From IMG/VR virus record IMGVR_UViG_3300042197_001567, positions 27,095 to 91,094 of that record: a stretch of 64,000 nucleotides of DNA. One strand, 5' to 3'. The notes beneath the pieces were generated by a model. The model worked only from the letters and a program-made list of their open reading frames with translations, was not told where the DNA came from and made no database searches. Made by a program: the position numbers and the translations under genes. This stretch comes from a virus. The first letter of the stretch is position 1, and each line of letters begins with the position of its first letter. Positions 19,236 through 23,005 of this stretch are shown here, piece by piece.

Positions 19236-19936
19236 TATTTTAAACTTTTTAATTTCATAATTGCGTCAATCAATACTTCAACATCTCTCTCACAGTATTC
19301 GGCAATTTCTTTTAATTTATTTTGTTCCCAGTAGGATTCGTGTACTTTACCACCAGTTACCTCACCATCTTTTGGTGTCGGTATATCCAAACAAGCACAC
19401 ATCAAATCTAATGAACCAATTGCGGTGTATGCCCCATATTGCCAAATTTCTTTTGTGTCAATTGCCTTTACCTCCCATGGTTTAGTATCGTAAGACGGAA
19501 GTATTTTAGATGGCATAATTCCATTTACAATCATACGTTTTGCTAACATAGGAATGTCAAAGTTTTTTAAATTATGACCGCAAAGGTAAAAGTCTAACTT
19601 ATGACAACGATTTAATAAATCTCGAACATCGGTTAACAATTTAACTTCGTCATCACCAGAAAACGTTTGTTTTTTTACTTCACCATTATCTAAAACAAAT
19701 GCCATTGACACACAAACAATTTTTGCAAACTCCGGAACTAATGCGGTTCGTTTTGCGAAAATCTGATCTAATGAAAGTTGCGAATCTTCAGGAAATCTTT
19801 TTTGAAACCAGTCGATATATTTAATGAATTGATCCGCCACTTTTGGATTACTGGTTTTACATGTTTCATAGTCCCTACAACCACCAACAGTTTCAATATC
19901 CAAAAATAAAATTTTTGTTAAAGGTATATTTATCAT
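19235..19936 (-). CDS. 3'-5' exonuclease, PolB-exo-like (DEDDy)
   Basis: FLDIETV, GHNLKNFDIP, YCERDV. Confidence 0.85.
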   Translation of the reverse strand: MINIPLTKILFLDIETVGGCRDYETCKTSNPKVADQFIKYIDWFQKRFPEDSQLSLDQIFAKRTALVPEFAKIVCVSMAFVLDNGEVKKQTFSGDDEVKLLTDVRDLLNRCHKLDFYLCGHNLKNFDIPMLAKRMIVNGIMPSKILPSYDTKPWEVKAIDTKEIWQYGAYTAIGSLDLMCACLDIPTPKDGEVTGGKVHESYWEQNKLKEIAEYCERDVEVLIDAIMKLKSLK

Positions 19937-20769
19937 TATTTGTTTTTTAGTTTATCGATTATTTCCCACCCTTTGTTTTTACCATATGCTTTTAAAGTTG
20001 TGGTGCTAACAGACAATTTATTTTTTTTTACATGTTCAATAAATGAAGTATAACCCAAAAATTTTAAAATGTCATTAGATGGTGTTTTAATTACCCAAAT
20101 AATTTTTCTAGAGTGAGATTGTTTTTCCACCGATTCCTTGCTCCTTTTCTTACCTAATCTAGATAAAGACATTTGTATTTTTCGTTCATCAGTATATTTT
20201 TTACCTTTGTTAGGTGATACTTGTCCTTTTTTTTTATCTGAAATTTTTTTCTTGGATTCATTAGACATTGGTTTTTTTTTTATACCTTTTAGTGACTCAC
20301 TAATTTTTTTTCTTGTGTTGTCATTTATAATTCTACCTTTAGACACTTCTCTAATTTTTTTTCTAAAACCTTCAGACATTTTTAGACCTTTATTCCAACC
20401 ACCGATATTTCTATTTTGATTTTTTGCGGTTTGAGACATTTTAATTTTACTTTCTTTGGTGTGTTTTTTTCCTAACATAGGGGATCCGCCGTCACCACCT
20501 GAAGTTAAATTAACTAAATTAAATCCCCAACATTTCATTTGATAAATCCAATATGACTCAATTTCATTTGATATGTCATCATCACAGATATCTAATATTT
20601 CCATAACAATTTTTCTGTTATTTAATAAAACATTATTAATCCACTTTTCTTTATAAGTTTTTTTGTGTTTACTCTCATTGATGTGTGAGTGATATCTTTT
20701 GACGGTAAATTTTGTTTTACCAACATAACGGATTTTTTCTCCGTCGCTTAATGTGTAAATATAAGTCAT
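19936..20769 (-). mobile_element. GIY-YIG homing endonuclease with NUMOD3 repeats
   Basis: YIY..IRYVGKT..R..H, E..WI, NLTSGGDG, repeated GKKHTKESKIKMS-type motifs. Confidence 0.85.
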
Positions 20770-20797
20770 AACAATAAATATTATGACTTATATAATA

Positions 20798-22045
20798 TTA
20801 CTTAACTAAACTCAAATAAAAATCAGCTCTTGTTTTAGTGACCAAATTAAGATCATATCTATCTTTTACGGTTTCATACAATCTTTCTCCAAGATCTGTA
20901 ATCATATTTGGATTTTCAACCAATTTTTTAATCGATTTGAACCAATCGCTGTGATTTCTTGTCTCATCAACTAATAGTGCGTTTCCATCAGTAAACTGAC
21001 CATTTTTAAGTGCGTGTTTTAAATCAATTGTATATGGACCAACGTTTGATGCGATTAATGCTTTTTTATAAAAGCCAGCCTCAATTACTTTTAATTGTGA
21101 TTTCATTCGATTAAATACATGATTTTTAATTGGTGCTAATGAAATATCAAATTTAGAATAATTTTTAGCATAGCTTGTAACCGGTCTTGTCCATACTCTA
21201 ACATAATTTTCATTCTCAACACCAAGGTAATCGTTCTCAATAAAAGTATCTAAATAATTTTTATACTTTTCTGAAATTATTTTGTAATTATCAGTAAAAA
21301 TCTGTTCGTATTTAACCCAAACGGTTTCTTCAGGTCTAATTGGTCTTTGTGTTTTTTCACCAGTTTGTCTATTGATTTCAGTAACTTGTCCTCTAATGTC
21401 AAATCCACAAACATAATACTGTAACTTATTTTGGTAGTTTGACAACTTTGGGACCAATCCGTCTAAAAGTTTTAAATCATGTAGGTGAGAAGATCCTCCT
21501 AACCAACCAACTCTAATTTTTTCGGATGGTAGTGTTGGTTCACAAAACTGCGGGTCTTTTGGATCAACAGCATTAGGTAAAACAAAAACATTTTTATTAA
21601 ATTTTCTAATTTCATTTGCAAACAATTCTGTGGTTGTCGTAACATAATCACAAACTTTAAGATTTGCCATAATTTTCTCGTGCAATTTGTTTGACACGAT
21701 TAACTGATGAATTGGATGTTCTTTTGTTGGTAACCAATAATCATCAATATCTCCAATTACAACAATACCTAATGACCGTAATGATTTAATTAAATTTGGT
21801 GTGTTATCGTAATCTGAACCTATGGTTCTGTGAAAATGTACAATCTGATATTTTTTCCAGTAATTTATATCGTTAATTCTTGGCGAATAATCAATATCAA
21901 CATGAAACTCGTCTGGAAAAAGATTTTGTAATTTAACGTGGGGGTCAACTGAACGGAATTTACCTCAGCCAACCCCCGACTGGTCACTTGGAAGAACCAA
22001 TACTCTGATTCTTTCACGACCATTCAAGGGGTTATTTTGTGTCAT
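20798..22045 (-). CDS. GT-B glycosyltransferase whose reading frame contains an in-frame TGA at codon 27 (21967-21965)
   Basis: Track ORF 20798..21697 continues in frame upstream: MTQNNPLNGRERIRVLVLPSDQSGVG*GKFRSVDPH...DIDDYW...; C-terminal GWLGGSSH, DISLAP, KSQLKVIEAG. Confidence 0.8.
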
Positions 22046-22946
22046 ATTTTTTAATTAGTTTATTTATTATAGTTCGATCCGAAATATAATCCGATTCCCA
22101 AACTACTTCTAAATTATAACCATTATTTAAAATTATGTCAACTTTGTTTCTATCATATTCCCAAAGTTTTTCGGCCGTCATACCTTTTACTTGGTGAAAA
22201 TAGTCTTTATTGTACTTGTTTGGGTTACAGTGCCAATAATCACCATTATACTCTATTATCAAATTTAATTTAGGTAAAAATATATCACAAATTTTTGTAT
22301 CAACTCTGTGAGAATGTTTTACACTATACCCAAGTTTTTTTATTTCATTTATTATTTCTTTTTCTGTTTTTGATCTGTTAATTGATTTTAATTTACCTAG
22401 TCTTCTTGTTTCATTCATTTTTTCAGACATTATTTTTTTAACGTGATCTAATTCACCACTATCCCATTTTTGTTTAAGATTTTTTCTTGCCTTTTCTTTC
22501 CACATTTTGTTTGACATAGAATTTTTATTACCAGTCGCCTTTCCTTTTCTATTTTCAGATATTTGTTTTTTTGTTTCTTCTGAATGTTTTTTATTATAAA
22601 ATGGGTTATTATTTCCTTTCATATTTTCAGATAAACAACTTTTACAAACTGAATTTTTATTTTCTGAATTAAAATAGTTTCTACATGTTGTTACTTGAGT
22701 TTTTGTTGTAATTAATATTATTTTTTCACATCTCGGACATTTTCTTTCAGTTACATACTTCCCATTTATTAGTTTTATCTCAATAGATTTACATCTATTT
22801 CTTTTTCTAACAACTTTGTTATCATTCAGTATTTTTAAAATAGTTGGTTTAGAAACATTAAATTCTTCGGCAATTTGTATCGAATTTCTTCCTTGTAAAT
22901 ATTTTTTGATGATTAACTTTTCGTCCAGATTGATCTTTTTACCCAT
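22032..22946 (-). mobile_element. homing endonuclease: HTH + Zn finger + NUMOD3 + Vsr/DUF559-like nuclease domain
   Basis: CPRC..CKSC, NPFYNKKHSEETKKQIS, D..IIEYNGDYWH..D..K..GYNLEVVWESD; start reassigned to ATG 22946. Confidence 0.8.
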
Positions 22947-23005
22947 AACATTTTTTATTATAAATACACCGTAAATGTCAATAGGCAACATTAACAATAG
23001 AAAAT

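What the first reader, a model, noticed from the sequence alone, without database searches (positions are those of the whole stretch)
19936..22988. Homing endonuclease plus recoded insertion as a possible mobile cassette
Seen: the interrupted GT gene has a homing endonuclease on each side. The Vsr/DUF559-NUMOD3 gene overlaps the GT start by 14 nt and ends about 65 bp from the UGA. Established: in T4 the gene 60 bypass insertion destroys the cleavage site of the neighbouring MobA endonuclease, so the two move together. Inference: the 6-nt insertion and local recoding immunise this allele against the adjacent nuclease, while hopping rescues translation. This would be a minimal intron-less self-protection device.
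Basis: inference. Interest (0 to 1): 0.75.

Follow-up and report, generated by a model that had tools for sequence, protein, structure and literature searches.

The report
Endonuclease cassette with short ribosome hop
A selfish endonuclease gene in an uncultured lake jumbo phage has rebuilt the start of the neighbouring sugar-transferase gene, leaving a stop codon in it. Fifty natural variants of this break indicate that ribosomes hop over it, which would be a short, independent counterpart of the phage T4 gene 60 bypass, not yet shown at the bench.

Summary
The GT gene (22045-20798, minus strand) has one in-frame TGA at codon 27, between GGC and GGT. A Vsr-like homing endonuclease gene (HEG) overlaps its ATG by 14 nt.

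- **The break:** Among 145 unique alleles from public viromes and metagenomes, 50 carry a break at this codon. Gaps are 2, 3, 4, 5, 6, 7, 8 or 10 nt. Every gap opens with TGA or TAA.
- **Matched codons:** 49 of 50 gaps lie between matched codons (GGY to GGN, or AGY to AGC). Skipping the gap restores the invariant motif SGVGKFRS. Readthrough cannot explain gaps that are not multiples of three.
- **Leader and hairpin:** All gapped alleles carry a 9-11-codon N-terminal extension. It encodes the 5' arm of a covarying hairpin of about 26 bp that ends at the take-off codon. Ungapped alleles lack this hairpin.
- **Mobility:** The gap tracks the HEG tree (3 changes), not the GT tree (at least 29). The window is a mosaic: its flanks are 97-100% identical to a cassette-less phage, and its cassette (about 22990-21944) is 98% identical to another phage.
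- **Selection:** GT bodies of gapped alleles are under purifying selection (dN/dS 0.04-0.18).

Protection of the allele from the nuclease is untested. The downstream GIY-YIG gene is a separate element. I found no publication on this. This scan has already noted the same cassette on other genomes.

The parts
22032..22946 (-). Free-standing homing endonuclease gene (304 aa). Domains: N-terminal HTH, CxxC..CxxC zinc finger, NUMOD3, C-terminal Vsr-like nuclease.
   Evidence: Pfam NUMOD3 at 39.4 bits (above cut-off) and HTH_7. PHROG 'homing endonuclease'. AF2 model pLDDT 86.5. Best Foldseek hits are the I-Bth0305I catalytic domain 3r3p (TM 0.75 over the target) and E. coli Vsr 1vsr (TM 0.63). Invariant D221, E232, G235-D-Y-W-H239, K254, D265, E284 in 36 homologues.
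21944..22990 (-). The mobile cassette as delimited in this genome: HEG, new GT start, N-terminal extension, hairpin, gap, and about 18 nt of recoded sequence after the landing codon.
   Evidence: Flanks are 97.5% identical to the cassette-less L180/L181, up to 22987 and again from about 21943. Inside these limits the window is 57-60 of 60 nt identical to L182, whose flanks are only about 60-95% identical.
21968..22045 (-). First coding piece of the GT gene (26 codons, ATG to take-off GGC). Codons 1-11 (22045-22013) are the cassette-borne N-terminal extension.
   Evidence: Translation. ATG-to-take-off is 26-29 codons in all gapped alleles. It is 17-18 (two of 20) in most ungapped ones; a few read longer, mostly from an upstream ATG.
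21970..22034 (-). Long hairpin (26 bp in the window). The 5' arm lies in the N-terminal extension. The 3' arm ends on the first base of the take-off codon.
   Evidence: MFE -29.4 kcal/mol, z -3.35. Present in all 42 distinct gapped alleles: MFE -23.7 to -34.8, against an ungapped median of -13.1 and best of -20.7. Covariation: 85.2% of cells paired, 73 double-change cells against 27.5 in shuffles, 0 of 500. Chimeric arms -20.6 against native -30.0, 0 of 2000. Covariance model R1 hits all 39 gapped loci searched (38 at E <= 0.01; L049 at 0.16) and none of 12 ungapped controls.
21968..21970 (-). Take-off codon GGC (Gly).
   Evidence: Always GGY or AGY in the 50 gapped alleles. The same codon is GGA or GGG in 39 of 95 ungapped alleles.
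21965..21967 (-). Coding gap: TGA stop, in the A site at take-off.
   Evidence: The first triplet after take-off is TGA (32) or TAA (18) in all 50 gapped alleles.
21962..21964 (-). Landing codon GGT (Gly).
   Evidence: Matched to the take-off codon in 49 of 50 alleles. Gly pairs go with the motif GVG|KFRS and Ser pairs with GVS|YFRS.
21940..21977 (-). Second, alternative 13-bp hairpin with take-off codon and stop in its 5' arm. It shares bases with the first hairpin, so the two cannot form together.
   Evidence: MFE -24.8, z -3.5. Kept in the GGY-TGA-GGT subclade (88.9% of cells paired), but covariation is not significant (94 of 500). Absent from many TAA and Ser alleles.
20798..21964 (-). Second coding piece of the GT gene (landing codon to stop, 388 codons). 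GT-B type glycosyltransferase.
   Evidence: PHROG glycosyltransferase at 1e-44. 7902 homologues. dN/dS 0.04-0.18 between gapped alleles. The motif lies at the beta1-loop-alpha1 junction in the model.
19936..20769 (-). GIY-YIG plus NUMOD3 homing endonuclease gene. A separate element, not part of the cassette.
   Evidence: Pfam. Present in the cassette-less L180/L181. Absent from L182 and from the 18 cassette loci.

Best explanation
This is a mobile homing-endonuclease cassette that carries its own translational repair device. The cassette is about 1.05 kb (window about 22990-21944). It holds:
- a Vsr-like endonuclease gene;
- a replacement start and 5' end for the adjacent glycosyltransferase gene;
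- a short untranslatable gap (here TGA) placed inside the DNA that encodes the enzyme's invariant SGVGKFRS loop.

**Spread (inferred).** The endonuclease cuts cassette-less alleles near that conserved site in co-infecting phages. Repair then copies the whole cassette. The gap most likely also spoils the enzyme's own target.

**Decoding (inferred from comparative data).**
1. The ribosome starts at the cassette's ATG and reads 26 codons, melting a long hairpin as it goes.
2. It stalls with GGC in the P site and the stop codon in the A site.
3. The hairpin re-forms behind the ribosome. Its 3' arm ends in the take-off codon, so re-forming pulls the mRNA through.
4. Peptidyl-tRNA(Gly) lets go of GGC and re-pairs with GGT 6 nt downstream.
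5. Translation resumes and yields a protein with the wild-type loop.

**Shown:** anatomy, recurrence, matched codons, non-triplet gaps, the covarying hairpin, horizontal transfer of the cassette, purifying selection on gapped genes.

**Inferred:** the hop itself, the hairpin's role as driver, the cleavage site, and self-protection.
For: 1. The stop is obligatory. With the middle codon left free, 18 of 18 contigs have a stop. All 50 unique gapped alleles open the gap with TGA or TAA.
2. Gap lengths are 2, 3, 4, 5, 6, 7, 8 and 10 nt. The downstream frame is shifted accordingly, for example L026 (GGC, 10 nt, GGA), L055 (GGC, 7 nt, GGT), L060 (AGC, 5 nt, AGC) and L049 (AGT, 2 nt, AGC).
3. Take-off and landing codons are matched in 49 of 50 alleles and switch together between Gly and Ser. 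Skipping the gap restores the consensus motif exactly.
4. The take-off codon is always GGY or AGY. Gly at -2 is always GGG or GGA in 38 alleles found without bias, against 46 of 95 GGY in ungapped alleles.
5. The hairpin is universal and covaries, ends at the take-off codon, and is absent from ungapped alleles.
6. Mobility. The gap state needs at least 29 changes on the GT tree (21 forced by well-supported branches) but only 3 on the HEG tree. The window is a mosaic. In four near-isogenic pairs the divergence ends 6-18 nt after the landing codon.
7. Function is retained. dN/dS is 0.04-0.18 for GT bodies of gapped alleles, including a clade that has lost the HEG.
8. No UGA or UAA suppressor tRNA is found among the 45 and 24 tRNA genes of two cassette-bearing phages.
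9. Contigs from RNA libraries of two studies keep the gap.
10. The architecture parallels the T4 MobA/gene 60 element: HEG, an N-terminal extension overlapping the HEG out of frame, a bypass, an end at or just after the landing codon, and HEG loss with the bypass retained (bioRxiv 10.1101/2022.08.31.505936).
Against: - No protein or ribosome data exist. The hop, its efficiency and its product are inferred.
- One allele (L051) has unmatched codons, AGT-TAA-GGC.
- Landing on GGA by a tRNA that reads GGY needs a third-position mismatch.
- After a 6-nt hop, the base of the hairpin would still lie inside or at the edge of the ribosome, so the pulling model is only qualitative.
- Self-protection is untested. 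Nine full-length HEG relatives sit beside ungapped alleles, although they lack a 40-60-residue module.
- The covariation counts come from an alignment fitted to the model.
- The RNA-library contigs could derive from carried-over DNA.
Confidence: 0.8

Rival explanations
1. The stop is read through (near-cognate or suppressor tRNA, or a reassigned code). This would give a protein with two extra residues in the loop.
For: In this window the gap is a single in-frame TGA. Some public gene calls show W at this place (P0003-P0006).
Against: - Twelve of the 50 unique alleles have gaps that are not multiples of three and change the frame.
- TGA and TAA alternate.
- A sense codon never occurs at this place.
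- The loop is invariant in thousands of homologues.
- No opal or ochre suppressor tRNA was found in two cassette phages.
- The other genes of the window read normally under table 11.
Confidence: 0.05
2. The gapped alleles are dead or dying genes, collateral damage of endonuclease invasion. Alternatively the C-terminal part is made alone by internal initiation.
For: An in-frame stop 26 codons into a gene is the usual signature of a pseudogene. The HEG is selfish and could impose a cost.
Against: - 44 gapped alleles have otherwise intact full-length frames.
- dN/dS is 0.04-0.18 at dS up to 1.9, also in a lineage that lost the HEG but kept the gap.
- The 26-29-codon first piece stays open and conserved, with an ATG, in every allele.
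- There is no start codon near the landing site.
- Matched codons and a covarying hairpin have no reason to persist in a dead gene.
Confidence: 0.06
3. The frame is restored by assorted classical events: +1 or -1 frameshifting for some gap lengths and readthrough for others. Or the gap is removed from the RNA.
For: A G-rich, Shine-Dalgarno-like GGGG/GGAG stands 3 nt before the take-off codon next to a stop. This resembles the prfB +1 site (my own knowledge; codon counts).
Against: - Three different mechanisms would be needed for one homologous site. No slippery heptamer is present.
- One rule, re-pairing at the next matched codon, fits 49 of 50 alleles.
- No homopolymer run is present for transcriptional slippage.
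- RNA-library contigs keep the gap.
- Excision of 2-10 nt from RNA is unknown in phages.
Confidence: 0.05
4. The gap and hairpin serve mainly to throttle or time GT synthesis (a regulatory hop), not to protect the allele from the endonuclease. Linkage with the HEG would then be hitch-hiking.
For: - Gapped alleles persist after HEG loss (7 with none, 10 with remnants).
- HEG relatives exist beside ungapped alleles.
- The gene 60 literature itself doubts that protection is the only role.
Against: - The gap follows the HEG phylogeny (3 changes against at least 29).
- It lies at the most conserved DNA of the gene, a typical homing target.
- Cassette-less near-identical phages do well without it: 85 of 97 unique alleles in the unbiased sample are ungapped.
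Confidence: 0.2

Closest known systems
Phage T4 gene 60 translational bypass carried by the MobA homing-endonuclease element (Manning & Atkins, bioRxiv 10.1101/2022.08.31.505936, and the Bonocora et al. 2011 work it cites)
   Same: - A free-standing HEG, an N-terminal extension that overlaps the HEG frame out of frame, and a coding gap move as one unit.
- The gap starts with a stop codon after a Gly take-off codon and ends at a matched landing codon.
- mRNA structure lies around and behind the take-off codon.
- The element ends at or just after the landing codon.
- The HEG decays while the bypass stays.
- The element sits in DNA that encodes a conserved protein motif.
   Different: - No sequence homology, and a different host gene (glycosyltransferase, not topoisomerase).
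- The HEG is Vsr-like, not HNH.
- The HEG is inserted upstream of the gene and does not split it, so there is no C-terminal extension.
- The gap is 2-10 nt instead of 20-50 nt.
- Ser as well as Gly codon pairs are used.
- The dominant RNA element is a long 5' hairpin whose 3' arm ends in the take-off codon.
- Nothing has been shown experimentally.
Short 'hops' over a stop or hungry codon in E. coli constructs (Weiss, Gesteland, Atkins and others; cited as refs 5-8 in the same preprint, otherwise from my own knowledge)
   Same: Peptidyl-tRNA leaves its codon when the A site holds a slowly decoded codon and re-pairs with a matching codon a few bases downstream, independent of frame.
   Different: Those were low-efficiency events in synthetic or mutant contexts. 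Here the site is natural, conserved, carried by a mobile element and equipped with a dedicated hairpin.
Mobile bypass elements ('byps') in the mitochondrial genes of the yeast Magnusiomyces capitatus (from my own knowledge; mentioned)
   Same: Many natural coding gaps with matched take-off and landing codons, spread as mobile DNA.
   Different: Those are 27-55-nt GC-rich inserts in mitochondria, with many per genome and no endonuclease gene attached. Here there is one site per genome, with 2-10 nt and an HEG.
I-Bth0305I / Vsr-like (EDxHD) homing endonucleases
   Same: The predicted nuclease-domain fold matches. They are also phage-borne and mobile.
   Different: I-Bth0305I is intron-encoded. 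This enzyme is free-standing, with HTH, zinc finger and NUMOD3 modules. Its host gene is kept readable by a ribosome hop instead of by splicing.

Membership tests
Programmed translational bypassing (works like T4 gene 60) | Two coding pieces separated by an untranslated gap. The gap need not be a multiple of three. | tested here: met
   Gaps of 2, 3, 4, 5, 6, 7, 8 and 10 nt at one homologous codon. The downstream frame is offset accordingly.
Programmed translational bypassing (works like T4 gene 60) | Matched take-off and landing codons readable by one tRNA. | tested here: met
   49 of 50 alleles: GGY to GGN, or AGY to AGC, switching together. The exception is L051.
Programmed translational bypassing (works like T4 gene 60) | A stop or slowly decoded codon directly after the take-off codon. 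| tested here: met
   TGA in 32 and TAA in 18 of 50 alleles. Never a sense codon.
Programmed translational bypassing (works like T4 gene 60) | Stimulatory mRNA structure at or behind the take-off site. | tested here: met
   A conserved, covarying hairpin ends at the take-off codon. Its stimulatory role itself is not tested.
Programmed translational bypassing (works like T4 gene 60) | One continuous protein made across the gap; nascent-peptide signal. | not testable with these tools
   No proteomic or ribosome data. An N-terminal extension of 9-11 residues is always present, but its peptide role is unknown.
MobA/gene 60 element (membership by descent) | HNH MobA endonuclease inserted in the topoisomerase II large-subunit gene, with a homologous bypass cassette. 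| tested here: not met
   The nuclease is Vsr-like and the host gene is a glycosyltransferase. There is no similarity to phage records. So this is an analogue, not a member.
Homing-endonuclease mobile cassette | Presence/absence polymorphism with sharp borders and a phylogeny discordant with the host gene. | tested here: met
   Mosaic of L180-type flanks and an L182-type cassette. At least 29 changes on the GT tree against 3 on the HEG tree.
Homing-endonuclease mobile cassette | The enzyme cuts cassette-less alleles, and the cassette allele is resistant. | not testable with these tools
   Needs purified protein and substrates.
Vsr-like (EDxHD / I-Bth0305I type) homing endonucleases | Vsr-type nuclease fold with conserved acidic and His residues. 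| tested here: met
   Foldseek: 3r3p TM 0.75 and 1vsr TM 0.63 over the target, probability 1.00 but E about 0.01. Invariant D221, E232, D236, H239, K254, D265, E284. Weak Pfam REase_MTES_1575 hit.
Stop-codon readthrough or reassigned genetic code | Upstream and downstream parts in one frame, with one stop type decoded as an amino acid. | tested here: not met
   Non-triplet gaps, TGA and TAA used interchangeably, and normal stops elsewhere.
Programmed +1/-1 frameshifting (prfB or dnaX type) | One fixed shift at a slippery site. | tested here: not met
   The required shifts would be 0, +1 and -1 at the same site in different alleles. No slippery heptamer is present.

The most novel reading that the evidence does not exclude
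Homing endonucleases have at least twice, independently, solved the problem of sitting next to the most conserved DNA of a host gene by carrying an RNA device that makes ribosomes skip an inserted gap. This family would be a natural, evolving series of hairpin-driven hops of 5 to 13 nt (gap plus landing codon), using either tRNA-Gly or tRNA-Ser. It would offer dozens of ready-made variants for dissecting how a ribosome lets go of a codon and lands again.
Probability: 0.72. Interest if true: 0.85.

Novelty: new variant of a known kind. Interest (0 to 1): 0.8.

Why it matters
**For translation research.** For over thirty years the T4 gene 60 bypass was the only well-documented programmed bypass in a phage. 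The 2022 survey still found it only in topoisomerase genes and calls the cassette unique.

A second, unrelated family would show that HEG-linked bypassing is a general strategy, alongside introns and inteins, for colonising essential coding DNA. This family has very short gaps, two tRNA species and a covarying hairpin that ends in the take-off codon. It supplies a natural mutational series (gap length, codon pair, stop type, hairpin arms) for testing current ideas that mRNA refolding behind the ribosome drives forward sliding (title and abstract of bioRxiv 10.1101/2024.12.09.627546).

**For annotation.** About one in eight alleles of a very common freshwater jumbo-phage gene is mis-called as truncated, or as using code 4.

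Tried and rejected
Contigs of the database proteins were reached through the search for related loci and the DNA search instead.
- **Rejected pattern:** a first degenerate pattern had too few plain bases.
- **Chance matches:** two later pattern scans required GGGGT and GGY and also returned unrelated matches, which were discarded. Codon statistics were therefore recomputed on loci found without that bias.
- **MAFFT plus RNAalifold** on the 40 leaders found only 4 pairs, because the 5' arms are out of register between subclades. This was replaced by per-sequence folds, a chimera test and a covariance-model alignment.
- **Third-position conservation** around the gap is only mildly raised and is confounded by relatedness.
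- **GT structure model:** overall pLDDT 56. Only the N-terminal domain is usable.
- **tRNAs:** none on the window's own 91-kb contig.
- **Cultured phages:** no cultured phage in the GenBank set has this GT, so there is no ready laboratory system.
- **Sequencing runs:** only contigs were available. Parts of the stretch without cover, and the DNA runs holding about half of the words (probably cassette-less relatives), were not interpreted.
- **Earlier check:** an earlier scan note says that part of the same claim 'fell' in a check on other DNA. I could not find which part.
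Full report
**Setting**

The window is part of a 91-kb IMG/VR contig, estimated 28% complete. It comes from an AT-rich (about 30% GC) uncultured freshwater phage that has a tail sheath, its own DNA polymerase and a helicase. Relatives reach 362 kb and carry up to 45 tRNA genes. All genes discussed lie on the minus strand.

**Observation**

- The GT gene starts at ATG 22045 and reads 26 codons to GGC (21970-21968). Then comes TGA (21967-21965), then GGT (21964-21962) and 387 further sense codons to the stop at 20798.
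- The upstream gene (22946-22032) has HTH, NUMOD3 and a weak Vsr-like REase match. Its stop lies 14 nt inside the GT frame.
- The downstream gene (20769-19936) is a GIY-YIG/NUMOD3 endonuclease.

**The break is a recurrent, rule-bound feature**

The GT has thousands of close homologues of 404 aa with an invariant N-terminal motif, PSDxSGVGKFRS. A minority share our longer N-terminus and two extra positions, printed 'GW', in the motif.

A scan of IMG/VR with a pattern that left the middle codon free returned 18 contigs. All 18 have a stop there (TGA 11, TAA 7), with varying Gly codons on either side.

Protein-based and further pattern searches gave 145 unique alleles, 50 of them gapped. Their properties:

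| Property | Result |
|---|---|
| Gap length | 2 nt (1 allele), 3 (38), 4 (3), 5 (1), 6 (1), 7 (1), 8 (3), 10 (2) |
| First triplet after take-off | always TGA or TAA |
| Flanking codons | matched in 49 of 50: GGY to GGN where the motif is GVG\|KFRS, AGY to AGC where it is GVS\|YFRS |
| Take-off codon | never GGA or GGG, although 39 of 95 ungapped alleles use these at that position |

If the gap and one copy of the matched codon are skipped, every allele encodes the consensus loop. Readthrough cannot do this for the non-triplet gaps. Classical frameshifting would need three different shifts at one site.

In a sample found without reference to the gap, 12 of 97 unique alleles are gapped.

**The genes are alive**

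- Forty-four gapped alleles are otherwise intact.
- Pairwise dN/dS of their GT bodies is 0.04-0.18 at dS up to 1.9. This includes a clade with an 8-nt gap that has lost the endonuclease gene.
- No opal or ochre suppressor tRNA is present among the tRNA genes of two cassette-bearing phages.
- 151-nt contigs from metatranscriptome libraries of two studies match window 21935-22085 and 21922-22072 without any difference. The gap is therefore not visibly removed from RNA, though DNA carry-over cannot be excluded.

**A dedicated RNA structure**

Following a lead in this scan's earlier notes on other genomes, I folded the leader of every allele.

- **Universal in gapped alleles.** All 42 distinct gapped leaders form a long hairpin running from about codon 4-5 of the N-terminal extension to the take-off codon. 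MFE is -23.7 to -34.8 kcal/mol (median -30.3). The same stretch of 87 ungapped alleles has a median of -13.1 and a best value of -20.7, so the two ranges do not overlap.
- **In the window.** The hairpin spans 22034-21970, with 26 bp, -29.4 kcal/mol and z -3.35.
- **Where it ends.** The 3' arm ends between -1 and +4 relative to the first base of the take-off codon.
- **The arms covary.**
  - Many positions show two to five pair types.
  - Swapping 5' and 3' halves between alleles costs 9.4 kcal/mol on average, and 0 of 2000 random re-pairings reach the native mean.
  - On a covariance-model alignment of 38 alleles, 85.2% of cells pair (shuffles 76.6). There are 73 double-change cells (shuffles 27.5) and the covariation score is 0.248 against 0.130, each 0 of 500. 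Slid controls pair at 29-47%. This alignment is fitted to the model, which favours the structure.
- **Specific to the cassette.** The model finds all 39 gapped loci searched (38 at E <= 0.01; L049 at 0.16) and none of 12 ungapped controls. It also hits L243, an allele that keeps the extension but has no gap.

The hairpin explains two otherwise odd correlates of the gap:

- The start-to-take-off distance is 26-29 codons in every gapped allele, against 17-18 (two of 20) in most ungapped ones, including those beside an HEG. The extension encodes the 5' arm.
- The Gly codon at -2 is exclusively GGG or GGA. It pairs with CCC or UCC in the extension.

It is confined to the GGY-TGA-GGT subclade, lacks significant covariation and is mutually exclusive with the first.

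**The gap belongs to a mobile endonuclease cassette**

- **Co-occurrence.** HEG or its remnants lie beside 38 of 45 gapped and 11 of 88 ungapped alleles. The odds ratio is 38 and Fisher p is 2e-16, not corrected for phylogeny.
- **Phylogeny.** On a GT tree built without the leader, the gapped state needs at least 29 changes, 21 of them forced by well-supported branches. That is close to random (shuffled mean 37.4). On the HEG tree it needs 3.
- **Mosaic.** The window is 97.5% identical to two metagenome contigs (L180, L181) on both sides. Those contigs lack the HEG, the extension and the gap. Between about 22990 and 21944 the window is instead 57-60 of 60 nt identical to L182, a phage whose flanks are only about 60-95% identical to ours.
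- **Right border.** It lies 18 nt past the landing codon, after a run of synonymous differences. In three further near-isogenic pairs the divergence also ends 6-18 nt after the landing codon. This suggests the break and repair start close to the gap.
- **Decay series.** Seven gapped alleles have lost the HEG cleanly and ten keep remnants. All retain the extension, hairpin and gap.

**The endonuclease**

- The model (pLDDT 86.5) and a 36-sequence alignment show an HTH, a four-Cys zinc finger, NUMOD3 and a C-terminal domain. That domain's best structural matches are the I-Bth0305I catalytic domain and E. coli Vsr. The NUMOD3 region matches the I-TevI DNA-binding domain.
- HEG relatives found beside ungapped GT alleles form two groups within the main HEG clade, beside the ungapped outgroup pair L057/L064. 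Both groups lack a 40-60-residue module between NUMOD3 and the nuclease. They may therefore bind or cut differently.
- This is the main reason the self-protection idea remains open: it cannot be tested here.
- The GIY-YIG gene downstream of the GT is unrelated to the cassette. It is present in L180/L181 and absent from L182 and the other cassette loci.

**Mechanism proposed**

The cassette supplies a new start codon inside the 3' end of the HEG.

1. The ribosome unwinds the hairpin while translating the 26-codon leader.
2. With GGC in the P site and UGA in the A site, decoding is slow.
3. The apical part of the hairpin has already re-formed behind the ribosome. Zippering of its G-C-rich base (CCCC with GGGG, ending in the take-off codon) would draw the mRNA out of the exit side and strip the codon from the peptidyl-tRNA.
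4. The tRNA re-pairs at the next matching codon.

This is the logic proposed for the 5' stem-loop of gene 60, compressed to a few nucleotides. The G-rich run could alternatively, or additionally, act as a Shine-Dalgarno-like element, as at prfB (my own knowledge).

The geometry is qualitative. After a 6-nt hop, the base of the stem is still at the edge of the ribosome.

**Comparison with what is known**

The architecture matches the MobA/gene 60 element point by point: HEG, an N-terminal extension overlapping the HEG out of frame, a gap opened by a stop, matched codons, an end just after landing, and loss of the HEG with the bypass retained.

But there is no homology. The host gene, the nuclease family, the gap length (2-10 nt against 20-50 nt) and the position of the HEG (upstream, not splitting the gene) all differ.

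Full-text searches found no report of bypassing in a phage glycosyltransferase. The 2022 survey found bypass cassettes only in topoisomerase genes and calls the cassette unique. No cultured phage in the GenBank set carries this GT.

Within this scan the same cassette has been reported several times on other genomes, with the same reading. Those are unchecked AI notes, and I treat them as leads only.

**Verdict**

The mobile-cassette and hopping parts of the interpretation are strongly supported by comparative evidence. The self-protection part is plausible but untested. The device is richer than '6 nt plus recoding', because it includes a leader-encoded hairpin. I rate it a new variant of a known kind (HEG-linked programmed bypassing), of high interest, awaiting a simple reporter and mass-spectrometry test.

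Noticed in passing
L043:3576-5801 (also L049, L050, L052-L054, L060-L062, L067): In more distant relatives the same GT gene also carries an intein with an endonuclease domain at the second conserved motif (GWLGGS|C...HN|SHL), in addition to the upstream HEG and a Ser-type gap. That puts three selfish-element solutions in one gene.
   Followed up: partly
window 19936-20769: The GIY-YIG/NUMOD3 endonuclease gene between the GT and the exonuclease gene is an independent insertion. It is shared with L180/L181 and absent from L182 and the other cassette loci. Only L173 shows a homologue at that position.
   Followed up: partly
L243:4978-5051: An allele that keeps the cassette's N-terminal extension and hairpin (model score 69.6 bits) but has no gap and no HEG. 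It is either a precise gap loss or a crossover between the hairpin and the gap.
   Followed up: partly
L051:3453-3500: The only gapped allele with unmatched codons (AGT-TAA-GGC). Pairing of tRNA-Ser(GCU) with GGC would need a G-U pair at the first codon position, or the allele is defective.
   Followed up: no
alignment A5 (HEG proteins), for example L041:2477-3235 and L045:2504-3262: HEG relatives that sit beside ungapped GT alleles lack a 40-60-residue module between NUMOD3 and the nuclease domain.
   Followed up: partly
L340:11351-11424 and L339:5320-5393 (362-kb phage record G001): This complete jumbo phage carries a Ser-type 4-nt gap. It encodes 45 tRNAs, including one with anticodon CUA (amber-suppressor-like; ARAGORN calls it 'Pyl') and one that ARAGORN reads with a four-letter anticodon.
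   Followed up: no
window 21940-21977: A second 13-bp hairpin shares the GGGGGUUGGCUGA bases with the main hairpin, so the two are mutually exclusive. It is found only in the GGY-TGA-GGT subclade.
   Followed up: yes
window 21922-22085: Contigs from metatranscriptome libraries of two studies span the HEG 3' end, the GT start and the gap without a single difference. This fits co-transcription of the HEG and the GT leader, though DNA carry-over is not excluded.
   Followed up: partly
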